IMG/VR virus record: IMGVR_UViG_3300044296_000239
Length of the DNA stretch: 25,944 nucleotides
Source: a virus
Taxonomy: Duplodnaviria; Heunggongvirae; Uroviricota; Caudoviricetes
Strand: one strand, 5' to 3'
Shown here: positions 3,968-21,305 of the stretch, piece by piece
How the letters are laid out: the number at the start of each line of letters is the position of its first letter
Numbering within the stretch: the first letter of the stretch is position 1
Made by a program: the position numbers and the translations under genes
The notes under the pieces: generated by a model
The model's input: only the letters and a program-made list of their open reading frames with translations
Told to the model about the DNA's origin: nothing
The model's database searches: none

Positions 3968-4381
3968 ATGACCGCCAGAATGACCCCAGTTTGTATTAGC
4001 ACCTTGACCACCGGAAGCACTTACATATGAACCAAATGACGATGTTCCGCCACTACCACAGCCCTGGAAATAGTTACGACCATCACCAGCAGAACCAATA
4101 CTTACTGATACAGCTGTATTAGTTGCCCAACCTGAAGTATCAATCCACTTTTCAGCGAATCCGCCAGCACCGCCCGATTCAGTGTGACCACAACCACCTC
4201 CACCTGCGCCAACTACTAATACACGAATCTGGCGTGTACCAGCTGGTTTATACCAAGTACTACTGCCAGTATATGTTGCAATTTGTAATAATCCACCGCT
4301 ATCATCGTTCGAATCAAATCGCTGGATTTGTACTGTACCATCTGGGTATTCAACCCCAGTTTGTGTTAAACGAACTGTCAT
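3710..4381 (-). CDS. Glycine-rich tail/adhesin-like protein, paralog 1 (223 aa)
   Basis: MTVRLTQTGVEYPDGTVQ, TWYKPAGTRQIRVLVVGAGGGG, GGHGGVGSGGDINLRGGG, RGAYG. Starts 2 nt after the long fibre stop (TAATAATG). Confidence 0.8.
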   Translation of the reverse strand: MTVRLTQTGVEYPDGTVQIQRFDSNDDSGGLLQIATYTGSSTWYKPAGTRQIRVLVVGAGGGGCGHTESGGAGGFAEKWIDTSGWATNTAVSVSIGSAGDGRNYFQGCGSGGTSSFGSYVSASGGQGANTNWGHSGGHGGVGSGGDINLRGGGGHGHDNEAASQGGTGYFGGGSFGNHHSYRPHYAEGTNHTAPGGGGAGNWITNHGRGAYGSDGMVVVYSYA

Positions 4382-4383
4382 TA

Positions 4384-7300
4384 TTATGCTCCAACTTTTG
4401 CACGAAGAGCTTTAACTTCCTCTTGTAATTCCTTAATACCTTGGATTAATAGAGGAACAAGCTTTTCATAATTAACTGCTAAATATCCATTATCACGCTT
4501 AACAACAACTTCTGGTTGTACAGCTTGAATTTCCTGAGCGATAACACCAACATCGTGTGCTTCACCTTTATCTGCTTCTGGTTTCCAATTAAATGTGTAA
4601 CCACCAATCTGAGCAATCTTATCTAATGCACCAGCGATAGGTGTAATATTAGTTTTTAGATCGCGGTCAGAAGAATACCAAGCAGTAATATCATTACCGA
4701 AGAATGAAGCGTTCTGGACATATAAACCACCAGTAATACCAACACCACCAGAAACCTTTAATGCACCCGTTGTATAACTTGATGTTGCTGTACCAGAGCC
4801 TAAACTTACATCGCCAGCAAAACTACCTGCACCACCAAAGGAAGATGCACCTGTACCACTGAATACTGCTGCACCAGTAGATGTAACTGAACCACCAGCA
4901 TAAATTGCACCGCAATCAAATACAGCCTTTGTTGTGTTAGCAAATGTGATAGTAGTACTTGGTTTATTATATACTTGATATGCTGTAAATAGTTTATAAC
5001 GACCATCAATGTGATCACGCGCTAAACCAGCATAACGTAAACCATTAACAAATGTATTTAATGTAGCAGTACCACCAATTAAACCACCAGTAAATGTTCC
5101 ACCAACTTTTGTTACTGTAATGTTGTTCGCATCAACAATTGTAATTGTTGTATATGTACCATTATATGATGTTTGATTTGTTACACCGCTAATAGTAATT
5201 GTGTCTTTAGATTGAGCACCATGGCCAACTTTATAGATGTTTACAGTTGCTCCTGAAGTAGTAATAGTGGCTCCGGATAGTGCTGCAGATGTATATGAAT
5301 CTGCTGCTGCGCGATAAGAACCAACTGCGCCTAAATCAACTAGATCTGAAGAGTTACCATCACCTGAGAAGATAAGAGGATCAGAAACAGCTAAGTTTTG
5401 TGATGTAACAGTTGTTGAACCACCAGCAATAACAATCGTACCTTGAATTGTTGTATCACCAACAATATTAACAGAACCACCAACGTTTAAATTACCTTGT
5501 AGACCGATACCACCTTGAACACGTAACGCACCAGTTGTTGTACTTGTTGATTGACTTGTTGAATAAATTTCAACACCAGGTTGATGTCCTGAGCGTGATG
5601 TACCAATAATACGCATTCTTTCAAATGAGCTATTAGCAAAACCACCCGTTGAGAACACGATATCATTCATTGTACCATAACCAGATGTAGATAAGTATAA
5701 ATTACCTTTTTCATCTGTAGAACCAGCCTTAGCTGACATAAAAATGTAGCCGTCGCCTTTGCTTGTTACTCCATAGCTTGGATCGTTATAATTCTCAGAA
5801 CAAATACCCATATCAATCCAACCTGAAGTATTATCGCCCTTAGACGAATAAAGGATCAAGTCAGTAGAAGCTGATGCACCAGTATTAAAATTCTTTAATG
5901 CCATCTGAACAAAGTCATTAGCATTGCCTGTCATGATAGCAGATGCATTTGTTATACCAGTATAACCAGTATATGAATAGTTATCTTCGGTTAAACGCTT
6001 AGCATTCGAACCCTGAGTAATCATACCCATTTCAGCGCGAAGATCACCTTTAGTAATGATGTTACCTTGAACACCAAGACCACCAGTAATACGTAAAGCT
6101 CCTTGATCATATGCTTCAGCAACAGAATCTAGGTAGATTTCAACACCTGGTTCTATTGTTTTACCAGTTGGTATACCAGTAGATGCTTGAATTTCTGGAC
6201 GAGCTGTACCAATAAGCTTCATCTTAATCTGCGAAGCATCAAAACCACCAGTAAAGAATGTAATATCATTATGAGCACCATTACCACCGGTACCAATAAC
6301 TAAGTCACCATTACCGGTTGTGCCAACAGGAGCATTACAGAATAAGTAACCATCATTATTCTTAGTTACTGTCCAGTCTGGAGAACCATAACCAGAAGAT
6401 GTGATACCCATATCCATCCAACCGGATTCATTATCACCATTATCAGCATAAACGATCAAGTCAGTAGAAGCTGCGCTACCGTTATTTGTATTCTTAAGAG
6501 CGAATTGAACGAAGTCATCAGCATTTTTAACGAATACACCAGATGCATTAGTAATACCTTTATATGCAGTTGGTGTTCTTAACTGAACATTTAAATCACC
6601 TGCATTACCTAACCATACTGCAGATGTGCCGGTTAAACCAGCCACGTTCATAGTAATAAATCTAGAAGTGGTGTTAATACTTGCAATAGTAAAAGTACTA
6701 TTTGCAACAGTATTAGGATCTGGAAGACCAGAGATAGTGACAGACCAACCAATTGCAGCACTAGCTAATTGTGAACCAGCTGAATAATTAAATTTCAATA
6801 CACCAGGAGTTTTAGATGCTGATGTAATTTGTGTAGAGATATCGTAAATGCCAACGTCTACTTCTAAACTTTGTGCATTGTTTCCCTGATAAACTTCACC
6901 TTGAACAATATGAGCATTGCCGCTAACTGTTAAATCGCCTGGAATATTAACACTAGTTTTCCAAGCTGGAATTCCAGTAGTACTATCTACTTGAAGAACA
7001 GCATCACTACCACCAACTGGTAAACGAACTGCTCCGCTAGTACCATATGTTGGTAAATCGCCTTTAGTTGTAATTACTGATGAATCTGAACCCTGAACAA
7101 GATTTTGCCAATATGTTTCAGAGATATCATTAGAAGGATCATGATTTGTATGTGTTTGCTTAGCACTATAAGAAGAAGATGCTTTCTTAACTACATCACC
7201 TGGATGATATGTTGTTGATGATGACCAAGCTCCGCGTTGACGCAATCCATATACAAAGATACCCCAAGATGTAGTATCTGTTTCTGGAGAAGCATTAGTA

Positions 7301-7758
7301 TTATCTTGCTTAGCTAGATATGTGTAACCACCATAACGAACGATATCACCTACTTGATACGCAGCTGAAGAAGACCAATCGCCTTCTAATTCAACACCAT
7401 TAACAAAGTTATCCCAATTACCAACATCTTGATCTGCTAAGAAATCTGCACCAGCAGTGTTACCATTAATACAGATATATGAATCAGAACCAAACTTAAC
7501 TACATCACCTACCTTGTAGTATGTGCCAGTTGTCCATAGTCCTTGCCATGAAATACCATCAGTCATCAACTCCCATTTGAATGGAGCTGTTTCGAGAGCA
7601 GTATAAAAGCTCTCATCATTTGAACCTGATGTGTGTGCGCCTGTACAAACATATGACTTTCCGCCAAAACGAACTACATCGTCCTTAACGTAAGCTTGGC
7701 CAGTTTGCCATTCGCCCTTCCACCAGAACTTTAGTCTACCAAGTTTAAATTCTGCCAT
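4384..7758 (-). CDS. Long tail fibre with N-terminal carbohydrate-binding-like repeats and C-terminal intramolecular chaperone (peptidase S74) (1124 aa)
   Basis: MAEFKLGRLKFWWKGEW start; four W-x5-Y-x3-D-[VI]-V repeats; ~200-aa internal duplication; C-terminal SDRDLK...GVIAQE...VNYEKLVPLLIQGIKEL (4387-4671) with Ser and Lys(+5) of the auto-cleavage dyad retained. Confidence 0.88.
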   Translation of the reverse strand: MAEFKLGRLKFWWKGEWQTGQAYVKDDVVRFGGKSYVCTGAHTSGSNDESFYTALETAPFKWELMTDGISWQGLWTTGTYYKVGDVVKFGSDSYICINGNTAGADFLADQDVGNWDNFVNGVELEGDWSSSAAYQVGDIVRYGGYTYLAKQDNTNASPETDTTSWGIFVYGLRQRGAWSSSTTYHPGDVVKKASSSYSAKQTHTNHDPSNDISETYWQNLVQGSDSSVITTKGDLPTYGTSGAVRLPVGGSDAVLQVDSTTGIPAWKTSVNIPGDLTVSGNAHIVQGEVYQGNNAQSLEVDVGIYDISTQITSASKTPGVLKFNYSAGSQLASAAIGWSVTISGLPDPNTVANSTFTIASINTTSRFITMNVAGLTGTSAVWLGNAGDLNVQLRTPTAYKGITNASGVFVKNADDFVQFALKNTNNGSAASTDLIVYADNGDNESGWMDMGITSSGYGSPDWTVTKNNDGYLFCNAPVGTTGNGDLVIGTGGNGAHNDITFFTGGFDASQIKMKLIGTARPEIQASTGIPTGKTIEPGVEIYLDSVAEAYDQGALRITGGLGVQGNIITKGDLRAEMGMITQGSNAKRLTEDNYSYTGYTGITNASAIMTGNANDFVQMALKNFNTGASASTDLILYSSKGDNTSGWIDMGICSENYNDPSYGVTSKGDGYIFMSAKAGSTDEKGNLYLSTSGYGTMNDIVFSTGGFANSSFERMRIIGTSRSGHQPGVEIYSTSQSTSTTTGALRVQGGIGLQGNLNVGGSVNIVGDTTIQGTIVIAGGSTTVTSQNLAVSDPLIFSGDGNSSDLVDLGAVGSYRAAADSYTSAALSGATITTSGATVNIYKVGHGAQSKDTITISGVTNQTSYNGTYTTITIVDANNITVTKVGGTFTGGLIGGTATLNTFVNGLRYAGLARDHIDGRYKLFTAYQVYNKPSTTITFANTTKAVFDCGAIYAGGSVTSTGAAVFSGTGASSFGGAGSFAGDVSLGSGTATSSYTTGALKVSGGVGITGGLYVQNASFFGNDITAWYSSDRDLKTNITPIAGALDKIAQIGGYTFNWKPEADKGEAHDVGVIAQEIQAVQPEVVVKRDNGYLAVNYEKLVPLLIQGIKELQEEVKALRAKVGA
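5480..6570 (-). repeat. Internal tandem duplication (~190-200 aa unit) in the long fibre; end points approximate
   Basis: GITNAS...DFVQ.ALKN.N.G..ASTDLI.Y...GDN.SGW.DMGI...PGVEIY...GALR..GG.G.QGN occurs twice. The 20-mer gatcaagtcagtagaagctg is identical at 5854-5873 and 6454-6473 (offset exactly 600 nt). Confidence 0.9.
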
Positions 7759-11932: not shown

Positions 11933-13132
11933 TTATGTTGGAATAACATATCTAATAAACACAATTCCAGAATCTCCATTTGATCCTGCTCTATATGCAG
12001 TACCTCCTGATTCGCCATGACCTCCAGAACCTCTACTAGTACCTTGACCAATACCATCTGAGCCAGCAGTACCATAATACGTACGACCAGCTCCACCCCC
12101 ACCAGCATAATATTCAGTAGTTCCATCGCGAGCAAAGTCAATACCTCTTCCAGGACCACCATTTCCAGCAGCGCGTGATCCAGCATTACCACCTGCACCT
12201 CCTGCTCCTCCTCCACCCCCACCAGCTGAAGAAGTTCCATTATCATATCCACTACCACCCCAATTACCTTCACCAGGAACTGGATTACCTGCGCCAGCTC
12301 TACCGCCTCCACCGCCACCGCCGCCACCGCCTGAACCACCATAACGACCCGCAGATCCACCATCACGTGAACCTCCACCACCACCGCCAGTGCATCCTAT
12401 TACACCATCAATGTATGAACTTCCGCCGTCAGAACCATTATTGCCACCGCCAGACCATGAGCCACCGCCACCAACTTGGACCCATCTTCCACTAAGATTA
12501 GCCGGAATAGTTACATTGTCCCATCTTAAACCGCCTGCTCCACCACCGCCACCACCATTACCGCCGCCGCCTCCACCACCAGCAACTACTAATACTTCGC
12601 ATGGAACATTCTTAGCAGTATAAATCCAATTTGAATAAGTAAATTTATGATAGCGATAACCGTTACGATCAAATACTGCATCTCCTCCTCGTACATAGTC
12701 ATTCAAAGCCAATACAGGAGTTGATGCAATAATTGGTCCAGCAATAGACTCTGTTCTAAATACTACTGTCCACTGTCTATTACCATCTGGAATTCTATCA
12801 GATACGAATTTTTTTGTAGTATTATAAGTATTATTAACTATATTTGCTGTTCCATCCAATACTTTATCTGTAAAGTCAGCGGTTGAAAGTGTAGTACCAC
12901 TCAACGTATTAACAGTCCAATACAGATTGGTACCATCGGGTAAACCAGTAGTATTAATTGATATTGAGATTGAATCGCCTTCTGTATATGACGATGCATT
13001 AGCAGTCACTGCAGCATCAAAATGCCATAACCCATCTTCCAAGAAGTTTCTAACTTCTCTGGCATTTCTAATACCATTACCATTAAAATATGTTGGTAGA
13101 TTTTTTTTACCAATTATTCCACCATTATACAT
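11933..13132 (-). CDS. Gly-rich tail protein with Calx-beta/Ig-like middle domain (399 aa)
   Basis: N-terminal GGIIG..N.PT...W anchor; EGDSISISINTTGLPDGTNLYWTV...DF...G...I (Calx-beta-like); C-terminal EVLVVAGGGGGG...GGGGAG...GDSGIVFIRY Gly-rich domain. Confidence 0.8.
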   Translation of the reverse strand: MYNGGIIGKKNLPTYFNGNGIRNAREVRNFLEDGLWHFDAAVTANASSYTEGDSISISINTTGLPDGTNLYWTVNTLSGTTLSTADFTDKVLDGTANIVNNTYNTTKKFVSDRIPDGNRQWTVVFRTESIAGPIIASTPVLALNDYVRGGDAVFDRNGYRYHKFTYSNWIYTAKNVPCEVLVVAGGGGGGGNGGGGGGAGGLRWDNVTIPANLSGRWVQVGGGGSWSGGGNNGSDGGSSYIDGVIGCTGGGGGGSRDGGSAGRYGGSGGGGGGGGGGRAGAGNPVPGEGNWGGSGYDNGTSSAGGGGGGAGGAGGNAGSRAAGNGGPGRGIDFARDGTTEYYAGGGGAGRTYYGTAGSDGIGQGTSRGSGGHGESGGTAYRAGSNGDSGIVFIRYVIPT

Positions 13133-13764
13133 TAAATAATACCTCTTTTAATAGTAACATTATCAATGTATCCACCCAAACCATAACCCCAAAATCCAAT
13201 ATTAGTTCCATTATTAAGAACAGGTTGAAAATCTCTATACTGATTTTCAGTAAACCAATCAATGCGTGCAGAATTATACATACGAATTCTAACATTAAAC
13301 CATGTATTTACTGGGGTTACAGGCCCTGAAGTTAACTCTCCGCCAACTTGTGTCCAACCTCTAGAGTATGATACACCAGTATATTTTCCTGCGCGTGTAT
13401 CGAATTTTAAATATGGTCCTTGGCCAGTTGTTGCGCACATAAAATTAACAGCAACAGCACTGTTTGTTGGTATATAAACATCAAATAAAAGAGTAGAATA
13501 TAATAAATTTTGTCCAGCAATTGGTTCTATATAACAATATGAATTACCACCAACATAAAAATTTCCATTAGATGAATATACTCCATTATTTGACCAACCT
13601 GTCATACTATCACATGGATTATAATAAATCGATTGGTTAATCCATTCATAATTAGTATTTTCAGTATATACTTGTTTCAAATTCCAAACACCACTAGCTC
13701 CATCGGAAGCAGAAACTCTGTTAAACCCGATATAACTACCTGGAAATTTGTTCCATTGAGACAT
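13132..13764 (-). CDS. Putative lectin-like (ConA/jelly-roll) tail protein (210 aa)
   Basis: N-terminal ASGVWNLKQV...W anchor motif; beta-rich C-terminus NTWFNVRI...IGFWGYG.GGYIDNVTI. TAATG overlaps at both ends. Confidence 0.6.
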   Translation of the reverse strand: MSQWNKFPGSYIGFNRVSASDGASGVWNLKQVYTENTNYEWINQSIYYNPCDSMTGWSNNGVYSSNGNFYVGGNSYCYIEPIAGQNLLYSTLLFDVYIPTNSAVAVNFMCATTGQGPYLKFDTRAGKYTGVSYSRGWTQVGGELTSGPVTPVNTWFNVRIRMYNSARIDWFTENQYRDFQPVLNNGTNIGFWGYGLGGYIDNVTIKRGII

Positions 13765-14123
13765 TACATAATACTTTCATACGAACAAGTCGCATGAAGA
13801 TAATTATTTGCAGAGGCAACAATACGAAGTGTATCACCCTCTTCCATATACACAGCTGCATCTTTTGATAACACTACAAGCGTTGAATTGGCTGGAACAT
13901 AAATTGTAGAAGCAATTCTATATTCAGTGTTGTTTCTATACATGTATACCGTAATTTGCGCAGCTGCACTGCCGTTAATGTTAGCTATAATAATACTATT
14001 GACTTTCAATAATTTTCCACTTGCAGCAGCATTTACCAAAAAGTCTTGAGGCGTAGTAGTGGGTGCAATATAAGCTGTTTTACCAGTAATATTACTAACA
14101 GCAACAATATTTGGTGCAGACAT
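13764..14123 (-). CDS. Conserved small phage virion-region protein (119 aa)
   Basis: MSAPNIV.V..ITGKT...SGKLLKVNSIIIANING...ASTI.VPANSTLVV..K....Y.EEGD.LR..AS, a very common environmental-phage family. GGAG SD. Confidence 0.8.
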   Translation of the reverse strand: MSAPNIVAVSNITGKTAYIAPTTTPQDFLVNAAASGKLLKVNSIIIANINGSAAAQITVYMYRNNTEYRIASTIYVPANSTLVVLSKDAAVYMEEGDTLRIVASANNYLHATCSYESIM

Positions 14124-14135
14124 CTTTTTCTCCGA

Positions 14136-14786
14136 TTATTCTTTTTGTGTGATGTATGTTCTGTTTAACATAGTATGATTGTGATCTGTTGGACCCCAAT
14201 CACCATCTGGATGGAAAGCGATAACTGTCATCTCTTCATCTTTTGTCATGAATCGATGTTGTTCTCGTTCTTCTATACAGAACATTACACCTTGTTTTAA
14301 TTCTATTTGTTCTTCATCATATGATTTCTTTATACAAGCATAACCTCTACCACGTACTACAATACCAAGTCTAATACTTGGATGAATATGGTATGATTGT
14401 TTTACTCCACTTGGAAAATGCAATAAGTTTAGTGATGGATCTCCCATTCTAGGAGGATACACTAATAAACTATCACTACAGTTATTAATATAAACCAATC
14501 TTCCAGTCTTTTCTATTGGACCACCAATAGTATTTTGTCCTTTATATCCCATTCGAGTAAAGATATACACTTCTCCAGAAGTATCGATAGATTCACTCTG
14601 TAAAGACCAAAAACAAAAATATTGTCCTTCTACTGCAACGCTACCATTTGGAAACTTTACATCTCCGCTCATCACATATCCATATATTGTTGAATATGGT
14701 TTTGTATGATAAAGGGCATTTACAACTTTTTCACCAATCGATGGATACATCGTATCCAAAGCCAAAATTTGGTTATTAATAATCAT
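14136..14786 (-). CDS. Cupin-fold putative metalloprotein (216 aa)
   Basis: Cupin metal motif 1 LHFPSGVKQSYHIHPSIRLGIVVRGRG and motif 2 LKQGVMFCIEEREQHRF...MTVIAFHP. ATGA overlap with the upstream gene. Confidence 0.7.
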   Translation of the reverse strand: MIINNQILALDTMYPSIGEKVVNALYHTKPYSTIYGYVMSGDVKFPNGSVAVEGQYFCFWSLQSESIDTSGEVYIFTRMGYKGQNTIGGPIEKTGRLVYINNCSDSLLVYPPRMGDPSLNLLHFPSGVKQSYHIHPSIRLGIVVRGRGYACIKKSYDEEQIELKQGVMFCIEEREQHRFMTKDEEMTVIAFHPDGDWGPTDHNHTMLNRTYITQKE

Positions 14787-15916
14787 TTCATCATATCCGC
14801 AAAAGTATTACTTTGGTTAATATATTCACTATCAGGAGTTGGAAACTCTTTTGTGAATGACATATCATCATTTAAAAACATGACGATTTCTTTTTGTTTA
14901 ACTAAATTAGTGAGACTACCAACTTTAGGTTTACTATAGTATGACTGATCTCCATTAAATGCTAAAATGTAATCCTTAATAATATATTTAACGCTTTCCT
15001 CTGTGTTTTTAACTAATCTATCACTATTATTCATAGCCCAAAGTTGAAATTGTTCAGGACAATAAAATGTAGTATAATTCTCTAATATTTTAATATTTCC
15101 AATTGTTTTAGAATATGGTAATACTCTAACATAAACAGATTGCCATTTATTAGTAAAATTAATCCACCATAAAAATTTATAAAGAGTATCAATTGGAATT
15201 GGTGCAGCTGCGCATAAATGCTTAAACATCTCCATATATTTTGGAGCATAAGGTTTATATTCATCTTGTAATCTACCAATCATCCATGATACTATTTCAT
15301 CTTCTGCTTTATTTAAAGGTTCGAACAGAAATTCATATGGTCTATATGATGAAAATTTACCAGTTACCTGAGATCCAAAACATTGATCTGCACATTCTCC
15401 AGAAATTAACAGAAAGTCATCATTACCCACAAAATATGGAAATCTAAAACTTGATACACATTCAAATTTTTTAACTACATAATTTTTATAAAAATTAGGA
15501 TTTTCTAAAATAGAATGATCACTTAATAATACAACAACATGATCTTTTAAATCTTTTTCAGAACAATTTTTTAATAATCCACATAGAATAGCAGTAGAAT
15601 CAATACCTCCACTATACATAACTGCTAGTTTTCGACCTGATTCTTTAACCTGATTCATCAATTCAATAGCACGCTCATCGATTAATTCACCAAAATCTCT
15701 ATCAAACTTTTTAAATTCAGGAAGCTTTAAATGATCCATAATATCAGTTTTGATGGGAGTAGTAAATGTATTTGTCCTATCATGAGTACTAATATTATTA
15801 GAGAATAATTGATAATATCCACGCATAGCATGGCCACCTGGTAATTTATTGCACGCATCATAATGAGCTGGATTTACAAATAAATCATAGCTATTAAAGA
15901 ATATAGTTTTTTTCAT
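14783..15916 (-). CDS. Asparagine-synthetase-like N-type ATP pyrophosphatase, synthetase domain only (377 aa)
   Basis: PP-loop VMYSGGIDSTAI (SGGIDS at 15596-15613) and LLISGECADQCFGS (15371-15403), corresponding to the AsnB SGEGADELFG motif. No N-terminal Cys glutaminase domain. Confidence 0.75.
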   Translation of the reverse strand: MKKTIFFNSYDLFVNPAHYDACNKLPGGHAMRGYYQLFSNNISTHDRTNTFTTPIKTDIMDHLKLPEFKKFDRDFGELIDERAIELMNQVKESGRKLAVMYSGGIDSTAILCGLLKNCSEKDLKDHVVVLLSDHSILENPNFYKNYVVKKFECVSSFRFPYFVGNDDFLLISGECADQCFGSQVTGKFSSYRPYEFLFEPLNKAEDEIVSWMIGRLQDEYKPYAPKYMEMFKHLCAAAPIPIDTLYKFLWWINFTNKWQSVYVRVLPYSKTIGNIKILENYTTFYCPEQFQLWAMNNSDRLVKNTEESVKYIIKDYILAFNGDQSYYSKPKVGSLTNLVKQKEIVMFLNDDMSFTKEFPTPDSEYINQSNTFADMMK

Positions 15917-16653
15917 AAGCTGCTGTATTGAGTGCTTTCAGTCATAAAGGCATTAAGAATCGATTTGAGTTGTGTAATATCATTATTGTCTCTAACAATA
16001 TACGAATACTTTAATCTAAAATTTTCAGTTTCTGCAAGTCTACTAGCCATAGTATCATGTTGAAACATGATACGTTTAGCAGATTCTTGAAGGGTAAGAT
16101 CATGCAATTCAGCATATCCAGTAGTAAAAGGATATTGTAATAAAGGATCAGCTTCTATATTATTTTCTATAATATATTTAGCTTCTATATACTTTGAAAA
16201 ATATATATTTTGTTGACTATCAGTTCCTTTAGTAATTAATCTTCTAAATCTATCAATCTCAGCTTGAATAACATCTAATAAAGCAATCTTCTGGTTTATT
16301 AAAATATATCCATGTAATTGTTCAATAGTTGCAATATTTGGAGAATCTACCCAACTATAACCATCATCACTAATACGCATTCTCCAAGCTTTATTTCTAC
16401 TAAAGATTGTACGTTGAACTCCATTTTTCATACTATCAAAAATATAAGAATATACAACTTGCTTATCAAAGGATGATAATGCTCTTACACTGCCTGAATA
16501 AACACCAACTCCAAAGATACGCTTATCAGTAACATCAACTAATATATTAGATTGCTTATTATTTAATGACATATCTAATAGTTTATCATTAGGATTAATA
16601 AAATACTGTAATTGTGTTTTATAATATTCATCAATTTCTAAATCTGTTAACAT
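15913..16653 (-). CDS. Hypothetical protein, paralog of 16655-17380 (246 aa)
   Basis: C-terminal 89 aa align without gaps to the neighbour with 37 identities (hand count). The Y..KY.EA...YP...YA...LQ..A..I...AE.EN.R pattern resembles fibre-assembly chaperone tails. Confidence 0.75.
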   Translation of the reverse strand: MLTDLEIDEYYKTQLQYFINPNDKLLDMSLNNKQSNILVDVTDKRIFGVGVYSGSVRALSSFDKQVVYSYIFDSMKNGVQRTIFSRNKAWRMRISDDGYSWVDSPNIATIEQLHGYILINQKIALLDVIQAEIDRFRRLITKGTDSQQNIYFSKYIEAKYIIENNIEADPLLQYPFTTGYAELHDLTLQESAKRIMFQHDTMASRLAETENFRLKYSYIVRDNNDITQLKSILNAFMTESTQYSSL

Positions 16654-16654
16654 A

Positions 16655-17380
16655 TCAATATTCTCTATCTGACATAAATTGTTCTACGATATCTTTTAAA
16701 TTTTCAATCTTGGTTTCATCTAAGATACGTTTAAAGTATTTTAATCTCATATTTTCATACTCAGCGACAGTTGCATTTCTATTTTCGTATTGTAGTTTAA
16801 TATCTCTAGCAGCATCTTGTAAGCTAGAATCAATAATCTTTGCATATCCATCAACAAATGGATATTGTCCATCCAATGCATCAACTACATCTGATTTTAA
16901 TATATCACATGCTTCAATATATTTGTAAAAGTATATTTTTTCTTGATGTCTTAAATATCGTGAAATATGTCTAGTATTTCTTCTAATTCTAGTGGTAATA
17001 AAATCAATTGCTGCTACTTTTTGAATATTTAAAATTGCATTATATAACTCTTCAGTATCTTTAAAATCATAAACTTCACGCCATTCTAAATTCACAGAAT
17101 CTGTATATACAAGTTGCCATCTCCAGCAATCATTTAAACCAAATTCAATTGGAGTATCATAGGTTGGTTCTTTTAATATTCCAAATGCATTTGGGTCTTT
17201 TTGAATATATCGTAATGATTTAAAGTATTGACTAAGCGCAATAATCCTTCCAAATTTATCATTACTCATTAATATTGCAAATTTCCCCCTAGTAGCAAGA
17301 TTCATGGATACATCTTCATCCCTTATAAAATAAGGATAAAGCGACATATAAAATTCCCATGATTCTTTTTTACTTAACAT
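16655..17380 (-). CDS. Hypothetical protein, paralog of 15913-16653 (241 aa)
   Basis: Long ORF coupled on both sides (TAATG overlap; 1-nt gap). Shares IYFxKYIEA, QYPF..GYA, ENxRLKY with the neighbour. Confidence 0.75.
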   Translation of the reverse strand: MLSKKESWEFYMSLYPYFIRDEDVSMNLATRGKFAILMSNDKFGRIIALSQYFKSLRYIQKDPNAFGILKEPTYDTPIEFGLNDCWRWQLVYTDSVNLEWREVYDFKDTEELYNAILNIQKVAAIDFITTRIRRNTRHISRYLRHQEKIYFYKYIEACDILKSDVVDALDGQYPFVDGYAKIIDSSLQDAARDIKLQYENRNATVAEYENMRLKYFKRILDETKIENLKDIVEQFMSDREY

Positions 17381-17682
17381 TAATATTTTACTGGAGGAGT
17401 ATTGTTTAAAATATAATCGTCAATTCTAGTTTTTATACTATTAATTACCGATGGATGCATATTGATATTATTATAAACTTCATTCGGCAAAAGAGTTGTA
17501 AATCTTACAAACACATCTTCTGCCATTGTACTTGGAACAATGCACAATATGTTTATTCCATCTTGGCCAACCTGATCAACAAATTTTTGCTTTAATACCT
17601 TATGAAAACGTACTTGTATTACATGATCAAGTTGTTCAAGCTGTTTTATTAGCTGTATTAAATTTTCATTATCAGTTAACAT
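17380..17682 (-). CDS. Hypothetical protein, paralog of 17685-18035 (100 aa)
   Basis: 26 identities in an 86-aa ungapped alignment with the neighbour (hand count); tight coupling. Confidence 0.75.
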   Translation of the reverse strand: MLTDNENLIQLIKQLEQLDHVIQVRFHKVLKQKFVDQVGQDGINILCIVPSTMAEDVFVRFTTLLPNEVYNNINMHPSVINSIKTRIDDYILNNTPPVKY

Positions 17683-17684
17683 AA

Positions 17685-18035
17685 TTATGCCTGTAAATCA
17701 TATGCTACAGCTGTTGCCATATCAGTCATTTGATCTGGGAGAATATCTTTGTAAATATAATTATCAATATTCATCTTAAATTTTTGTACAATTCCTTGAT
17801 GTTTATCAATATTAGTTATATCTTCAACATGAATATAATCTCTAAATTGAATATAATGATCGGCACCATCTCTGCGCTTAACCATACAACAAATATGAAG
17901 ACTCTCTCCTCCAAGCTTGGCTTTTACAGCTTCTCTTAAGACTTCATTTGCGCGTACTTGAACAACGTTTCCAATACTTGCAAGAAGTTCAACTAGTGCT
18001 GATAAATTTTCAATGGTGTTGTTTAAAATAATCAT
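17685..18035 (-). CDS. Hypothetical protein, paralog of 17380-17682 (116 aa)
   Basis: ATGA overlap with the radical SAM gene stop; shares ENL..L...L.....V.QVR...VL and H......K..ID.YI with the neighbour. Confidence 0.75.
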   Translation of the reverse strand: MIILNNTIENLSALVELLASIGNVVQVRANEVLREAVKAKLGGESLHICCMVKRRDGADHYIQFRDYIHVEDITNIDKHQGIVQKFKMNIDNYIYKDILPDQMTDMATAVAYDLQA

Positions 18036-19474
18036 TTTTCTGCCCTTGCTTGAGTGTATACTTCTACATCATCTAATTTTACTTTTTCATTAATTACCTT
18101 GATTGGAATAACCTTTCTCTTAGGTTCTTCTTCATGTTTAGATAATGTACCCCAAATATCTTTTCTATCTTCAGGTAATATATCACTATTTATGTAAAAT
18201 GGGATGTAACCTCCAGTGATTTTTTGAAATGCAATTGCAAAAAGCACTATATTATCGCTATATGCATTATCACATGTAGTATTCCAATATTCATCTTGTA
18301 AAAACATACATGATCCTTTACATAGATGTAATACTGGACAATCTCCACATTTTGGTCTATTCATCCAATGAGTAGCCGATTTAATTAAGACATTGTCATA
18401 ATCATCTAAATTGCCGCTTAAATGTGATTCTCCATTCATTGCAGTTTCTACAGCAGAAACATTTTGACATGTTAAGACATTACCTTTCATATCAATTGCT
18501 AAGACGTGTTCGTTGTCCATTCCACATTTTTGGCCAAGATAATAGTCTTTTTTCTGATGTAAAATAGATTCAATAAAACCATTAATTTTTTGAACTATTC
18601 CATCAAATCCAATATTTGCATCTACACTAAAGATATCATTAAATGCTGTTCGTCTAAACTCAAAATGTTCTTGCTTTGTAGTTAGGCAATTATTCATTCC
18701 ATCAGCATCATATGCATCTACTAATCCACCTTCACCCAATATAACATTTTCATCACCTGTAAAATTTATAAACCATTCATGAATCTCTTTACGACTCTTG
18801 TTTTTAGAATTCAACATTGAATTAAAACTAATTCTACCCAAAGGTCGCATCATCTTATAAAATTCTAATACAATCTTTTTATTTTCTGGATCTTCGAATG
18901 GATCTGGACCACGCACACTTTGACCTGGACCATCATGACTAATTGAAACTGCAAATCCATTATACATTAACCACATACAAATTTCTCTAGTTAATATAGA
19001 TCCGTTTGTGATAACAGAAAATTTAGGTGCTTTTTTCCAATGAGAAAACCTCTCGCGAATTGCTTCAGCAAGAGGTTTCATAGTCTTCCAATATACAAAT
19101 GGTTCACCACCCCAAAATTCAATACTTAGACCTTTCTCTTCACAAAATTCTAATACATCTAATTTTGCAAGAAAATCATCAATATCTTTTTTAGATGTTT
19201 CTGGCGGACGTCCAACAAATTTTTGTGAACAATAATCACAAGAATAATTGCATGAAAGACCCATTTGGATCTTTAATTTTTGTATTTGTTTGGATTTTTT
19301 TAGAGGTGTGTCTTTTGAAAACGGCACTACTGGAGGTGTAATGTCATCAATGTTTTCGCTAGTTGGTATTTGAAATACAATACCATCCTCACTAGTAAGA
19401 GTACTAAGTTGGTTATCATACCAAAATAGTTTTCTGTCTTCTGAATGGCGTTCAGCCAATATTTCAAAAATCAT
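18032..19474 (-). CDS. Radical SAM enzyme with SPASM domain (480 aa)
   Basis: CxxxCxxC CNYSCDYC (19229-19252); FWGGEPF; VITNGS; SHDG; SPASM Cx13Gx4C (CGMDNEHVLAIDMKGNVLTC), Cx2Cx5Cx3C (CGDCPVLHLCKGSC, 18308-18349) and a further downstream Cys. AAGGA SD. Confidence 0.93.
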   Translation of the reverse strand: MIFEILAERHSEDRKLFWYDNQLSTLTSEDGIVFQIPTSENIDDITPPVVPFSKDTPLKKSKQIQKLKIQMGLSCNYSCDYCSQKFVGRPPETSKKDIDDFLAKLDVLEFCEEKGLSIEFWGGEPFVYWKTMKPLAEAIRERFSHWKKAPKFSVITNGSILTREICMWLMYNGFAVSISHDGPGQSVRGPDPFEDPENKKIVLEFYKMMRPLGRISFNSMLNSKNKSRKEIHEWFINFTGDENVILGEGGLVDAYDADGMNNCLTTKQEHFEFRRTAFNDIFSVDANIGFDGIVQKINGFIESILHQKKDYYLGQKCGMDNEHVLAIDMKGNVLTCQNVSAVETAMNGESHLSGNLDDYDNVLIKSATHWMNRPKCGDCPVLHLCKGSCMFLQDEYWNTTCDNAYSDNIVLFAIAFQKITGGYIPFYINSDILPEDRKDIWGTLSKHEEEPKRKVIPIKVINEKVKLDDVEVYTQARAEK

Positions 19475-19495
19475 TATATTAATCCTTCAAAATAA

Positions 19496-19504
19496 TATTT
19501 ATTA
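19496..19504 (-). promoter_or_regulatory. Possible late promoter variant TAATAAATA upstream of the radical SAM gene
   Basis: One mismatch to TATAAATA, overlapping the Cys-rich gene stop, about 20 nt before the ATG at 19474. AT-rich context weakens it. Confidence 0.35.
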
Positions 19505-19969
19505 GCCGCCGCAAGCGTCTCCACATGCACAAGCACAAGCACAAGCACAAGCACAATTATATGAAACTTGGCTTTGAACACAATTATAGGTGCACGCACA
19601 GTTACAATTTGGTTGTAACCATTCTTGTGAATCACAATTAACACAATTTACTGTAGAAGTAATTTGACAGTTCGTGCATTGAATATTACCACAATTTGCT
19701 GCAGCAACTGTACAATTACCATTATCACAATTACCTGCATTATTTTTTTGATAATAAGCATAACCCAATACGCCTGAAAGATTAGCTATATTATCTCTAT
19801 ATGCTGGTTTAGTATTATTTTGAATCCATGATAAATTTGCCGAATATGTATTAACTTCTGCTGTAATACCAGAAGCTGTTACAGTACCTTCAATATAAAC
19901 ACCGGCTTTTTTACGAGCTTCCTTATATACATCCGCTATTGTAATTGGACCTGTTGATTGTAATGTCAT
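19502..19969 (-). CDS. Cys-rich protein, candidate radical SAM substrate / fibre-tip protein (155 aa)
   Basis: GAGGA SD, TAATG overlap with the fibre stop. No Cys in residues 1-80, 18 Cys in residues 81-155, 10 Asn-Cys dipeptides, ends CACACACACACGDACGG. Confidence 0.85.
   Translation of the reverse strand: MTLQSTGPITIADVYKEARKKAGVYIEGTVTASGITAEVNTYSANLSWIQNNTKPAYRDNIANLSGVLGYAYYQKNNAGNCDNGNCTVAAANCGNIQCTNCQITSTVNCVNCDSQEWLQPNCNCACTYNCVQSQVSYNCACACACACACGDACGG
19523..19555 (-). repeat. Hexamer tandem repeat (TGTGCT)x4 plus TGTGCA and TGT, encoding the Cys-Ala run
   Basis: Plus strand acatgc-(acaagc)4-aca read directly. Confidence 0.9.
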
Positions 19970-21057
19970 TATCTATCCTCAAGAGCTTTTACTCTTTCAG
20001 TCAATTCATTAATGGCTTGTAAAAGTAATGCGCCCATATTTCCATATGCAACGCCTAAAGTACCATCTGCTTCTGTATGTATTAATTCTGGAGCTTGCTG
20101 CTTTACTTCTTGAGCAATGACACCAATCTTGTGTTCATTAGTAGTAACATGATCATAATAAACACCACGCATTTTATTAACTATGCTTAATGCATCTTTA
20201 ATAGTTTCAACGTTCTTTTTAAATTTAATATCAGAATATGCAACTACGTCACCTGCCATAACTAAGTGACCGCCAGGTTGAATAGCTCCACTAATTACAC
20301 CCTGATTAGTAAAACAGATGTAACCTTCAGTTGACCAATACAAACCTGTATCTTGATTTGTATCAGAAGAGAATCCAATACTTGGTTGAGTCTGTGAACC
20401 ATTACCAACTAATAGTCTATTACCAATAGTTGCATTAGTAACAGCTATTGAAGAAGTACTTAAAATCTTTGCGCCGCTAAGACCTGTGATCCAAGATGGA
20501 TCATTATAACCAGCTAGTGTAGAAACTGGTGTATAGCCACAACTAGCAGTAATATCGGCTAGATTTGCATTAGTCGCAGATGTTACGCGGCCATCACCAC
20601 CAACTGTTACTTTAGTATATGTTCCTGGTACAACTCCACTAGGATTAAGTGATAATGCAGCGCTTTGATTTGTAGAGCCATCAAAGGTAATATTCCATGT
20701 GGCATCACCAGTAATTGAAATAATACGTGCTGTTCTTAATTTAGTAGTAGTATCAGCATTACCGATTAAGTTGCCAACGCAGTCAGCGTATAGTTTACCT
20801 TGAAGTGTAAGATTACCGTTCTGATCTAATACAAGTTCTGCACCATCAACTGAATCGATTTGTACAGAAAAATTATTTCCATACGTGTTTATTGTACCAC
20901 TAATTGGAGCGAATGAACGCACCTCATTAATAGCTGCAGCTAAACTTGTTGAGGTTGTTAGAAGAGAAGCTTGATCACCAGCAAAAGAACTAATTGCATT
21001 TGTCTTAACTCGCCACTGTTCAAATGTATCTTCTAGACTCACATTGATAACAGACAT
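19969..21057 (-). CDS. Short tail fibre with C-terminal intramolecular chaperone (peptidase S74) (362 aa)
   Basis: N-terminal DTFEQWRVKTNAI anchor; SGVVPGTYTKVTVGGDGRVT and GSQTQPSIGFSSDTNQDTGLY fibre modules; SDIKFK...IGVIAQEV...VAYGNMGALLLQAINEL chaperone (19972-20235). Confidence 0.88.
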   Translation of the reverse strand: MSVINVSLEDTFEQWRVKTNAISSFAGDQASLLTTSTSLAAAINEVRSFAPISGTINTYGNNFSVQIDSVDGAELVLDQNGNLTLQGKLYADCVGNLIGNADTTTKLRTARIISITGDATWNITFDGSTNQSAALSLNPSGVVPGTYTKVTVGGDGRVTSATNANLADITASCGYTPVSTLAGYNDPSWITGLSGAKILSTSSIAVTNATIGNRLLVGNGSQTQPSIGFSSDTNQDTGLYWSTEGYICFTNQGVISGAIQPGGHLVMAGDVVAYSDIKFKKNVETIKDALSIVNKMRGVYYDHVTTNEHKIGVIAQEVKQQAPELIHTEADGTLGVAYGNMGALLLQAINELTERVKALEDR

Positions 21058-21068
21058 TTAGTTCTCTC

Positions 21069-21305
21069 TTATTTCTGGACATTTGCTAATATTTGAGTTA
21101 GCAATTGCTTAATATCGCTTATTTCCCCTCGCAGATCTTGGATGTCCTGTGAATTCTGGTCAAGTTGTTGTTTAGATCTAAGTAAATTTTCGCGTTGTCT
21201 TAAATATGCTTCATGTGCGCTATCATCTGTGTTAATGATAGCGCCTGAAGACATATCTCTGACTAATCTACTTTCATTCTCAACTTTAACTTTAAGCACA
21301 AGCAA
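21069..21305 (-). CDS. Small conserved coiled-coil protein (~76-78 aa; GTG at 21299 is an alternative start)
   Basis: KVENESRLVRD.SSGAIINTD..A..AY....I..L..EI..IK.LL pattern, recalled directly downstream of DUF4815/VrlC-like genes. GAGGA inside the upstream gene is better spaced to the GTG. Confidence 0.75.
   Translation of the reverse strand: MLVLKVKVENESRLVRDMSSGAIINTDDSAHEAYLRQRENLLRSKQQLDQNSQDIQDLRGEISDIKQLLTQILANVQK

What the first reader, a model, noticed from the sequence alone, without database searches (positions are those of the whole stretch)
19502..19969. Bipartite Cys-rich protein: fibre-tip-like N-terminus plus Asn-Cys-patterned core ending (CA)5C-GDACGG
Seen: residues 1-80 have no Cys. 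Residues 81-155 have 18 (81, 86, 93, 98, 101, 109, 112, 122, 124, 126, 130, 139, 141, 143, 145, 147, 149, 153). Ten are directly preceded by Asn, there are CxxC (98/101, 109/112) and CxCxC motifs, and the core has no Lys, Arg or His. This leader/core split is what RiPP precursors look like. The start MTLQSTGPITIADV resembles the 'MxLxSSGxIS' starts of small genes that follow S74-chaperoned fibres (recalled, not searched). Inference: the N-terminus docks on the fibre and/or enzyme, and the core is cross-linked or binds metals or Fe-S clusters in a metallothionein-like way. The terminal GG is also the motif adenylated in ThiS/MoaD-type sulfur carriers, notable given the ATP pyrophosphatase in the cassette, but this is speculative.
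Basis: partly seen in the sequence, partly recalled or inferred. Interest (0 to 1): 0.8.

Follow-up and report, generated by a model that had tools for sequence, protein, structure and literature searches.

The report
Enzyme-matured Asn-Cys phage fibre protein
A small phage protein encoded just after a tail-fibre gene has a docking head and an asparagine/cysteine-rich tail. It is always encoded next to a dedicated radical-SAM enzyme, so these phages probably chemically cross-link part of their host-contact apparatus, which I found described in no paper.

Summary
The 155-aa protein has no Cys in residues 1-80 and 18 Cys in 81-155. Ten Cys follow Asn, and the core has no K, R or H.

It belongs to a large family with a nearly invariant Asn-Cys core, known only from metagenomes and prophages. 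In 85 of 85 related loci, a 44-75% identical radical SAM/SPASM gene lies beside it on the same strand.

The N-terminal 60-80 residues are a generic adaptor. The same adaptor heads many unrelated small proteins that follow tail-fibre genes. In some homologs the alternating x-Cys tail is followed directly by a self-cleaving S74 chaperone or Hint domain.

Accessory enzymes vary with the tail type:
- Trp-ending tails go with a Trp-halogenase-like enzyme.
- Gly-ending tails, as here, go with the PP-loop ATPase and cupin.
- Long-extension forms go with an Asp/Asn hydroxylase-like enzyme.

Best reading: a fibre-associated protein whose core is modified, most likely thioether cross-linked, by the radical SAM enzyme. 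The chemistry and a place in the virion are inferred, not shown. Earlier notes of this scan describe the same kind of system on other DNA. I found no paper on it.

The parts
19502..19969 (-). Gene for the 155-aa Asn/Cys-rich protein (P0001). Its ATG shares one base with the stop of the upstream fibre gene. It ends in a double stop, TAATAA.
   Evidence: 177 homologs
19736..19969 (-). N-terminal adaptor domain, residues 1-78. It includes a lineage-specific beta-hairpin insertion at about residues 22-42.
   Evidence: AF2 pLDDT about 85. Profile A4 finds 555 representative clusters, many without the Cys core. These proteins follow fibre genes, three of which carry an S74 domain.
19505..19735 (-). 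Asn/Cys-rich core, residues 79-155, with 18 Cys. The alternating x-Cys tail spans residues 138-149, followed by GDACGG.
   Evidence: AF2 pLDDT <50 apart from residues 111-122
19522..19556 (-). Hexanucleotide tandem repeat (TGTGCT on the coding strand, 5.8 copies) that encodes the (CA)n tail.
19969..21057 (-). 362-aa tail-fibre protein with a C-terminal Peptidase_S74 intramolecular chaperone domain.
   Evidence: Pfam PF13884 E=2.5e-10; many PHROG tail-fibre families
18032..19474 (-). 480-aa radical SAM/SPASM enzyme. It has CX3CX2C at residues 75-82 and a full 7-Cys SPASM motif (317-336, 376-389, 401). It is the putative maturase of the core.
   Evidence: adjacent to the Cys-rich gene in 85 of 85 loci
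17685..18035 (-). 116-aa protein, paralog of the next gene. In other phages the two are fused into one protein of about 220 aa that follows the radical SAM gene.
17380..17682 (-). 100-aa paralog of the 116-aa protein.
   Evidence: E=4e-16
16655..17380 (-). 241-aa protein of unknown function, first of a paralog pair. Found only with Gly-ending forms of the Cys-rich protein.
15913..16653 (-). 246-aa paralog of the 241-aa protein.
   Evidence: E=2e-29
14783..15916 (-). 377-aa PP-loop ATP pyrophosphatase-like protein (SGGIDS motif). Found only in loci whose Cys-rich protein ends in Gly.
   Evidence: weak hits to LarE, TilS and Asn synthase and to a PAPS-reductase PHROG; co-occurrence
14136..14786 (-). 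216-aa cupin-fold protein, a possible oxygenase.
   Evidence: Pfam Cupin_2 E=7.5e-7; co-occurs with Gly-ending forms

Best explanation
P0001 is a modular phage protein associated with the tail fibre. It is not a free peptide precursor.

Residues 1-78 form a small folded adaptor domain. Many unrelated small proteins encoded directly after fibre genes share this domain. By inference it docks the protein on the distal end of the upstream fibre once that fibre's S74 chaperone has cut itself off, much as T-even gp38 adhesins sit on gp37.

Residues 79-155 are the substrate of the radical SAM/SPASM enzyme encoded 27 nt downstream. By inference, the enzyme binds substrate Cys thiolates on an auxiliary Fe-S cluster and abstracts a hydrogen from a neighbouring acceptor residue. 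The conserved Asn residues (NxxC and NC motifs) and Asp113 are the candidate acceptors. Repeated C-S (thioether) bridges would turn the otherwise disordered core into a compact knot that is independent of redox state and resists proteases.

The alternating x-Cys tail must end in a free C-terminus. In relatives it is followed directly by a stop codon or by a self-cleaving S74 or Hint domain.

The other cassette genes here (PP-loop ATPase, cupin, two paralog pairs) are lineage-specific tailoring or helper functions. They track the Gly-ending tail type and probably act on the tail.

Shown: the architecture, family conservation, gene linkage and co-variation. Inferred: docking, a place in the virion, and the chemistry.
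For: 1. Linkage. In 85 of 85 related loci (80 viral contigs, 5 genome contigs) a 44-75% identical radical SAM/SPASM gene lies on the same strand, mostly directly beside the Cys-rich gene. The pair also holds in L001-L008. The enzyme is very conserved, with a mean column identity of 70%.

2. Enzyme class. It has CX3CX2C plus a complete SPASM motif. The best NCBIfam hits are Cys-peptide maturases: PapB, QhpD, geopeptide, CcpM and SCIFF. The nearest solved sequences are TigE and CteB. The nearest folds are anSME, CteB, TigE and ChlB.

3. Core. AF2 leaves it unfolded despite a 94-sequence alignment with near-invariant columns, as expected for a segment that needs modification. NxxC motifs at 83-86, 95-98, 121-124, 123-126 and 138-141, and Asp113, are (nearly) invariant. 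NxxcB makes a Cys-Asn beta-thioether (PMC9389541). An Asn is almost never kept when the Cys after it is lost.

4. Structural role. The N-domain is shared with proteins that carry Gly_rich_2, fibrinogen-like and other C-terminal domains and that follow fibre genes. In 22 listed homologs the S74 chaperone starts right after the x-Cys tail, at ...CACAC|SDxRLK or ...CFW|SDDRLK, which is where the unfused proteins end. Other homologs carry a Hint domain there. In the cultured Achromobacter phage JWF the fibre gp028 itself ends in NCNCDCNCNCSC followed by a Hint domain, one gene away from the radical SAM homolog.

5. Tail type and enzyme set co-vary over 50 sequence clusters. Trp-enders have a Trp-halogenase homolog in 10 of 10. 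Gly-enders have the PP-loop gene in 6 of 10 and the cupin in 6 of 10. Long-extension forms have an Asp/Asn hydroxylase-like gene in 19 of 20.

6. Precedent for protein-sized substrates: QhpC/QhpD (PMC7876137) and CrpA/CrpC (PMC13692751).
Against: - No chemical or proteomic data exist. Thioethers, presence in the virion and docking are all inferences.
- Only 21 of the 85 loci have an S74 or Hint domain next to or fused to the pair. Many pairs lie among oxygenase and auxiliary genes instead, so the fibre link is not universal.
- The commonest long form carries an uncharacterised C-terminal extension of about 170 aa with a hydrophobic end. This is not obviously fibre-like.
- The closest solved enzymes by sequence and fold perform different reactions: cyclopropyl formation (the 8VPO paper) and, by my own knowledge, formylglycine formation by anSME. 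The reaction type is therefore not fixed by homology.
- The enzyme's N-terminus is modelled as three beta-strands, not a canonical RiPP recognition element.
- Ralstonia phage RSP15 has a 45% identical enzyme but no Cys tail within about 24 kb on either side.
- The co-variation is partly confounded by shared ancestry and synteny.
Confidence: 0.55

Rival explanations
1. The same structural protein and the same enzyme-substrate pair, but a different chemistry. The radical SAM enzyme might oxidise Cys to formylglycine as anSME does, epimerise residues, or make C-C or C-O links. Oxygenases might hydroxylate Asn or Asp. The product would be modified in some way other than thioether stapling.
For: The nearest folds include anSME, and the nearest solved sequence is the cyclopropyl synthase TigE. 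All NCBIfam hits fall far below the family cut-offs. 2OG/cupin oxygenases or Asp/Asn hydroxylase-like genes lie within 6 kb in 70 of 85 loci, on the same strand.
Against: The anSME target motif C/S-x-P/A-x-R (from my own knowledge) is absent, since the core has no Arg. The strongest profile hits are to thioether-forming maturases of Cys-rich substrates. The Asn-Cys coupling fits known Cys-Asn thioethers.
Confidence: 0.2
2. The core is a metal- or Fe-S-binding module, metallothionein-like or a Cys analogue of the HxH iron sites in T4 gp37-type fibre needles. In this reading the neighbouring radical SAM enzyme acts on something else or only assists cluster delivery.
For: Cys makes up 24% of the core, with CxC and CxxC motifs and no basic residues. 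The S74-fused forms imply trimers, in which alternating Cys could face the axis. AF2 cannot fold the apo form.
Against: This does not explain the strict 85 of 85 pairing with a peptide-maturase-type SPASM enzyme. It also does not explain the near-invariance of Asn next to Cys. No metallothionein or ferredoxin family is matched.
Confidence: 0.12
3. It is a classical RiPP precursor. The N-domain acts as leader, and the modified core is cut off and released as a toxin, signal or anti-competitor peptide.
For: It has a leader/core-like layout next to a radical SAM/SPASM enzyme. Many loci sit among auxiliary genes rather than fibres.
Against: No leader peptidase or exporter was found in the cassette. 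The N-domain is a folded module shared with proteins that have no radical SAM neighbour and follow fibre genes. C-terminal S74 chaperone and Hint fusions are features of structural proteins.
Confidence: 0.06
4. It is a ThiS/MoaD-like sulfur carrier. The terminal Gly-Gly would be adenylated by the PP-loop enzyme and thiocarboxylated.
For: This protein ends in GG. The PP-loop gene occurs only with Gly-ending forms.
Against: GG is not conserved in the family, where the commonest ending is CACACW. There is no beta-grasp fold or family hit. By established knowledge, ThiS/MoaD are activated by E1-like enzymes and not by PP-loop enzymes. Four of ten Gly-ending clusters lack the PP-loop gene.
Confidence: 0.02

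Closest known systems
Ranthipeptide and sactipeptide systems: PapA/PapB (freyrasin), NxxcA/NxxcB, SCIFF/CteB, CcpM
   Same: A Cys-rich C-terminal core is encoded beside a radical SAM enzyme with a full SPASM domain. The best profile hits of the enzyme are to these maturases. NxxcB links Cys to the Asn beta-carbon within an NxxC motif (PMC9389541), and conserved NxxC motifs occur here.
   Different: All hits lie far below the family cut-offs, for example 81 bits against a cut-off of 340 for PapB. The substrate is a 130-300-aa protein with a folded N-domain. There is no peptidase or exporter and no canonical RRE in the model. The setting is a phage fibre module, and some forms carry self-cleaving C-terminal domains.
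CrpA/CrpC of Methanococcus voltae (TIGR04463 radical SAM; PMC13692751)
   Same: A protein-sized, C-terminally Cys-rich substrate has an N-terminal domain shared with a neighbouring protein. A SPASM enzyme modifies it with ranthionine cross-links. The Cys region has low AlphaFold confidence.
   Different: The TIGR04463 model scores only 40.6 bits against a cut-off of 525. CrpA has a 17-residue repeat with a CxxQ/D motif, not the Asn-Cys pattern. It is archaeal and cellular, not viral.
QhpC/QhpD of quinohemoprotein amine dehydrogenase, with the flavoprotein QhpG
   Same: A small Cys-rich subunit is cross-linked by a radical SAM/SPASM enzyme through Cys-Asp/Glu thioethers. A flavoprotein then modifies a Trp (PMC7876137). 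QhpD is the second-best NCBIfam hit. Trp-ending family members always come with a flavin-dependent Trp-halogenase homolog.
   Different: There is no dehydrogenase partner. The QhpD-type model scores 70 bits against a cut-off of 453. QhpC has a cleaved 28-residue leader and is exported. The Trp position and context differ.
T-even gp38-type adhesins and other small distal fibre proteins (from my own knowledge, not tested here)
   Same: A small gene after the fibre gene encodes an N-terminal attachment module plus a variable C-terminal module. The shared N-domain with swapped C-domains seen here matches that logic.
   Different: There is no sequence or fold match to gp38. The C-module here needs a dedicated radical SAM enzyme.
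Metallothioneins and the HxH iron sites of T4 gp37-type fibre tips (from my own knowledge)
   Same: CxC and CxxC density without aromatic or basic residues, and possible axial metal sites in a trimer.
   Different: No family match was found. The Asn-Cys coupling and the obligate maturase are not features of either.

Membership tests
Radical SAM/SPASM-modified RiPP precursor (ranthipeptide/sactipeptide type) | Encoded next to a radical SAM enzyme that has CX3CX2C and a SPASM domain | tested here: met
   85 of 85 loci; motifs; TIGR04085 SPASM domain at 32.9 bits against a cut-off of 27
Radical SAM/SPASM-modified RiPP precursor (ranthipeptide/sactipeptide type) | Short leader peptide recognised by an RRE, and removed by a peptidase with export of the core | tested here: not met
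   The N-part is a folded 60-80-aa domain shared with proteins that have no radical SAM neighbour. No peptidase or transporter family was found in the cassette. The enzyme's N-terminus is modelled as three strands only.
Radical SAM/SPASM-modified RiPP precursor (ranthipeptide/sactipeptide type) | Thioether (Cys S to C-alpha, C-beta or C-gamma) cross-links in the product | not testable with these tools
   Needs mass spectrometry of the co-expressed protein.
PapB, QhpD, CcpM, SCIFF or TIGR04463 maturase families (for the enzyme) | Score above the NCBIfam curated cut-off | tested here: not met
   Best scores are 81.3 against 340 (PapB), 70.5 against 453 (QhpD), 64.1 against 500 (CcpM) and 40.6 against 525 (TIGR04463).
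Post-fibre adaptor-headed small proteins (PHROG 26746/26817, function unknown) | N-terminal MTLPxSGxISxSxxNxExG... domain, with the gene directly after a tail-fibre gene | tested here: met
   Profile A4, built from this protein and 61 family members, finds 555 representative clusters. PHROG hits come from core-less relatives; P0001 itself matches no PHROG. Context confirmed in L096, L097, Vibrio phage BUCT194 and Rhizobium phage Pasto. In the window the ATG overlaps the stop of the S74 fibre gene.
S74 (endosialidase-type) chaperone-dependent trimeric fibre proteins | C-terminal Peptidase_S74 domain on the protein itself | tested here: not met
   P0001 has none. The upstream fibre has one, and 22 listed homologs carry one fused directly after the x-Cys tail.
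Metallothionein | Match to a metallothionein family; metal-thiolate clusters | tested here: inconclusive
   No Pfam or NCBIfam match. Metal binding cannot be tested here.
ThiS/MoaD sulfur carriers | Beta-grasp fold with a conserved C-terminal Gly-Gly | tested here: not met
   GG is not conserved. No beta-grasp fold or family hit.

The most novel reading that the evidence does not exclude
Phages run a multi-enzyme, RiPP-style maturation pathway on a part of their own virion. A radical SAM/SPASM enzyme would staple an Asn/Cys knot at the fibre tip, within one chain or across the three chains of a trimer. Tail-specific tailoring enzymes would then finish its C-terminus: a flavin halogenase on a terminal Trp, a PP-loop ATPase on a Gly/Asp tail, or an Asn/Asp hydroxylase. 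The result would be a covalently hardened host-contact tip assembled in the reducing cytoplasm, where disulfides cannot form.
Probability: 0.4. Interest if true: 0.9.

Novelty: new variant of a known kind. Interest (0 to 1): 0.8.

Why it matters
Enzymatic modification of Cys-rich substrates by radical SAM enzymes is known for peptides and for a few cellular proteins (QhpC, CrpA). I found no paper that describes it for a virus particle protein.

If confirmed, it would add a new class of post-translational chemistry to phage host-recognition structures. It would explain a widespread unannotated gene pair in aquatic phages and prophages. It would also give RiPP enzymology a large, naturally diversified set of protein substrates with matched tailoring enzymes.

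The shared N-terminal adaptor also defines a general plug-in system for distal fibre proteins, which is useful for predicting or engineering host range in laboratory phages.

Achromobacter phage JWF is cultured, and Paraburkholderia sp. BCC1886 carries a copy next to fibre genes in its genome assembly. Both make the question directly testable.

Tried and rejected
- Nucleotide search with window 13000-21300 and tblastn with P0001 found nothing in the 50,697 phage records. The low-complexity filter may hide the core. Only more distant radical SAM homologs exist in cultured phages.
- P0001 matched no Pfam, PHROG or NCBIfam family.
- The family profile against PDB sequences gave only a meaningless weak hit.
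- Foldseek of the P0001 model found no fold in the PDB, and only a homolog in the viral library.
- The ESM Atlas feature search returned only unnamed viral clusters.
- The homotrimer prediction (complex prediction, three copies) gave 'no answer'. I do not use it for or against anything.
Expression could therefore not be examined.
- The six exact copies of the gene shown from other samples are identical in DNA, so they say nothing about selection.
- JWF gp029 shows no similarity to the window's 241-aa protein.
- Ralstonia phage RSP15 was scanned over 49 kb for Cys-tail motifs, and none lies in a plausible gene.
- A search for long fibres carrying the full core found only forms of 280-400 aa.
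- The all-disulfide idea is weakened because roughly 40% of short family members have an odd number of Cys.
- Literature searches for phage radical SAM fibre modification found no relevant paper.
Full report
**Observation**

The finding's coordinates hold an ORF on the minus strand, from 19969 down to 19502. The plus strand is closed by stops.
- 18 Cys, all in residues 81-155.
- Ten of them directly preceded by Asn.
- CxxC at 98/101 and 109/112, and CxCxC runs.
- No Lys, Arg or His in the core.

The other 27 ORFs of the window contain 0.91% Cys, so this density has a chance probability of about 1e-20. The Asn-before-Cys bias has a chance probability of about 6e-5. The ATG shares one base with the TAA of the upstream gene. 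The (CA)5 tail is encoded by a hexanucleotide tandem repeat at 19522-19556.

**Surroundings**

All genes here run on the minus strand. In transcription order they are:
- a 1544-aa DUF4815 protein;
- a 78-aa ORF;
- a 362-aa tail fibre ending in a Peptidase_S74 intramolecular chaperone domain;
- P0001;
- 27 nt later, a 480-aa radical SAM enzyme;
- two paralogous small proteins of 116 and 100 aa;
- two paralogous proteins of 241 and 246 aa;
- a 377-aa PP-loop ATP pyrophosphatase-like protein;
- a 216-aa cupin;
- further fibre-type genes with glycine-rich domains.

The radical SAM enzyme has CX3CX2C at residues 75-82 and a complete seven-Cys SPASM motif: CX13GX4C at 317-336, CX2CX5CX3C at 376-389, and C401.

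**The family**

P0001 has 177 homologs at E<=0.01 among proteins of similar length, nearly all from metagenomes. An alignment of 94 of them shows a strikingly fixed core, about GNCxNGNCTxNCNCGNIQCTNCxIxGxVNCxNCDxQxWLQxNCNCACTYNCxxxxVSYNCxCACACAC. Columns C81, C101, C109, N111, C112, D113, N123, Y128, N129, C130, C139, C141 and C143 are invariant. The identical protein occurs on 11 contigs, and the six places shown come from six different samples. The ORF is therefore a real, conserved gene.

**Linkage to the radical SAM enzyme**

I fetched 80 viral-contig loci and 5 genome loci that encode a relative. The genome loci include Paraburkholderia sp. BCC1886, a Polynucleobacter strain and three MAGs.
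- In all 85, a homolog of the window's radical SAM enzyme (44-75% identity) lies on the same strand, in most cases directly beside the Cys-rich gene. It is downstream when the Cys-rich protein is short, and upstream when the protein carries a long C-terminal extension.
- The same pairing holds in the separately fetched contigs L001-L008.
- The enzyme is extremely conserved, with a mean column identity of 70% over 24 sequences.

This obligate pairing is the central piece of evidence that the Cys-rich protein is the enzyme's substrate.

**What kind of enzyme**

- The best NCBIfam matches are all maturases of Cys-containing peptides or proteins: PapB, QhpD, geopeptide maturase, CcpM, nif11-type and SCIFF maturase. 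All score far below the curated cut-offs.
- The closest solved sequences are 8VPO (TigE, cited in a paper on radical SAM cyclopropyl synthases) and CteB.
- An AlphaFold2 model (pLDDT 84) is closest in fold to anSME, CteB, TigE, ChlB and SuiB.
- The modelled N-terminus is a three-stranded sheet, not a canonical winged-helix RiPP recognition element.

The enzyme is thus a new subfamily of peptide/protein-modifying SPASM enzymes. Homology alone does not fix its reaction.

**The two halves of P0001**

With the 94-sequence alignment, AlphaFold2 folds residues 1-78 confidently, at a pLDDT of about 85. It also places residues 111-122 (block mean pLDDT 78), with a strand at 117-120. It leaves 79-110 and 123-155 below pLDDT 50. 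No known fold matches.

A profile of the N-domain alone finds 555 representative clusters. Of the 143 newly listed sequences, 78 do not match my simple core pattern. Several of these are fragments or divergent Cys-rich forms, but many carry other C-terminal modules, such as glycine-rich or fibrinogen-like domains. Their genomic settings:
- In two metagenomic contigs the gene starts at the stop codon of an S74-terminated fibre gene.
- In cultured Vibrio phage BUCT194 it follows an S74 fibre.
- In Rhizobium phage Pasto it follows a T7-type collagen-repeat fibre.
- Sixty-one cultured-phage records carry the domain. Its PHROG families (26746 and 26817) have no assigned function.

The N-domain is best read as a general adaptor of small distal fibre proteins, not as a dedicated RiPP leader.

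**The C-terminal end**

Family members end in one of five ways:
- (i) with ...CACACW;
- (ii) with a Gly-rich tail, as here;
- (iii) with an S74 chaperone domain that starts immediately after the x-Cys tail, at ...CACAC|SDxRLK or ...CFW|SDDRLK, which is exactly where the unfused proteins stop;
- (iv) with a Hint autoprocessing domain at the same place;
- (v) with a conserved, uncharacterised extension of about 170 aa.

By established knowledge, S74 domains chaperone trimeric fibres and then cut themselves off. Forms (iii) and (iv) thus argue that the mature product has a free end after the x-Cys tail, and form (iii) also argues that it behaves like a trimeric fibre part.

In the cultured Achromobacter phage JWF, the fibre protein gp028 itself ends in NCNCDCNCNCSC followed by a Hint domain. 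It sits one gene away from a 44% identical radical SAM enzyme. Ralstonia phage RSP15 has the enzyme but no such tail within about 24 kb on either side. This exception remains unexplained.

**Tail type and accessory enzymes co-vary**

I grouped the loci into 50 clusters at about 80% identity of the Cys-rich protein.

| Tail type | Clusters | Accessory genes within 6 kb |
|---|---|---|
| Trp-ending | 10 | flavin-dependent Trp-halogenase homolog 10/10; 2OG oxygenase 10/10 |
| Gly-ending (as here) | 10 | PP-loop gene 6/10; cupin 6/10; 241/246-aa family 6/10; halogenase 0/10 |
| Long extension | 20 | Asp/Asn beta-hydroxylase-like gene 19/20; 2OG oxygenase 15/20 |

Oxygenase-type genes are on the same strand, and within 1 kb of the pair in 41 of the 85 loci.

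This pattern is what one expects if the accessory enzymes tailor the C-terminal tail. Shared ancestry of syntenic phages is a confounder I could not remove.

**Mechanism proposed**

Shown: the architecture, conservation, linkage and co-variation. Inferred:
- (a) The N-domain docks on the matured upstream fibre.
- (b) The SPASM enzyme links Cys sulfur to carbon atoms of nearby acceptors.

Candidate acceptors are the conserved Asn residues. NxxC motifs occur at 83-86, 95-98, 121-124, 123-126 and 138-141, and NxxcB makes exactly a Cys-Asn beta-thioether in an NxxC motif (PMC9389541). The invariant Asp113 is another candidate. C109 to D113 has a Cx3D spacing, which from memory is the motif used by PapB.

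Supporting hints are weak. An Asn is almost never retained when the Cys after it is lost, although adjacent columns are trivially correlated. Roughly 40% of short members have an odd number of Cys, which argues against an all-disulfide knot.

Covalent thioethers would let a phage harden a Cys-rich tip in the reducing cytoplasm. Precedents for protein-sized substrates are QhpC/QhpD (PMC7876137) and the recently described CrpA/CrpC of Methanococcus voltae (PMC13692751).

**Limits**

- Only 21 of the 85 loci show an S74 or Hint domain next to or fused to the pair. In many aquatic phage contigs the pair lies among oxygenase and other auxiliary genes.
- Presence in the virion is unproven.
- The homotrimer prediction gave no verdict.
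- No expression data could be obtained.

**Novelty**

I found no paper describing this family or radical SAM modification of phage fibre proteins. Earlier AI notes of this scan describe the same kind of system on other DNA and reach similar readings. They are not independent evidence.

I class it as a new variant of a known kind: a SPASM-enzyme-modified Cys-rich protein. The new elements are the viral fibre setting, the Asn-Cys core, the shared adaptor head, the self-cleaving C-terminal fusions, and the enzyme sets matched to the tail type.

Noticed in passing
window 696-2318 (-): A 540-aa flavin-dependent Trp-halogenase homolog (Pfam E=7e-107) lies about 17 kb from the Cys-rich gene. In related phages whose Cys-rich protein ends in Trp, a homolog sits inside the cassette (10 of 10 clusters). 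Here the protein ends in Gly, so its target in this phage is unclear.
   Followed up: partly
window 2351-7758 (-): A second S74-terminated fibre (1124 aa, with three CBM_5_12 modules) is followed by three tandem paralogs of about 220 aa with Gly_rich_2 domains. Their N-termini (MTVRL/MTVKL/MSVKL) differ from the adaptor of P0001.
   Followed up: partly
window 19522-19556: The (Cys-Ala)n tail is encoded by a near-perfect hexanucleotide tandem repeat, which could change length by slippage. The six exact copies shown from other samples were nevertheless identical in DNA.
   Followed up: partly
P0137, P0269-P0331; loci L015-L024 and others: The commonest long form of the family (about 290-330 aa, radical SAM gene upstream) carries a conserved C-terminal extension of about 170 aa (SKIICAKLYE...YRGYIRWAR...) with a hydrophobic end. 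It matches no Pfam or PHROG family.
   Followed up: partly
L021:6908-10556 and 70 of 85 related loci: 2OG-Fe(II) oxygenase, Asp/Asn beta-hydroxylase-like (PF05118) or cupin genes lie on the same strand close to the pair. This suggests hydroxylation of Asn or Asp as a further step, but such genes are also common in aquatic phages generally.
   Followed up: partly
L010 (Achromobacter phage JWF) 2793-4244; L009/L107 (Ralstonia phage RSP15): JWF fibre gp028 ends in NCNCDCNCNCSC followed by a Hint domain, near a radical SAM homolog. RSP15 has the enzyme next to a 277-aa protein (ORF046) but no Cys tail within about 24 kb on either side.
   Followed up: yes
P0001 residues 130-141 (window about 19547-19582): The segment C-x-T-x4-Y-N-C-x-C matches, except at the D/N position, the EGF-type Asp/Asn hydroxylation consensus C-x-[DN]-x4-[FY]-x-C-x-C. 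That consensus is recalled from memory. This may be coincidence.
   Followed up: no
contig of P0099 (no DNA held): An S74-fused family member is flanked by two radical SAM genes (515 and 478 aa), with a 2OG oxygenase nearby. Some lineages may use two maturases.
   Followed up: no
61 cultured-phage records, e.g. Vibrio phage BUCT194 gp065 and Rhizobium phage Pasto gp053: The adaptor N-domain (PHROG 26746/26817, function unknown) heads small unannotated proteins that start at the stop codon of tail-fibre genes in many cultured phages. These are probably a general class of distal fibre or adhesin proteins.
   Followed up: partly
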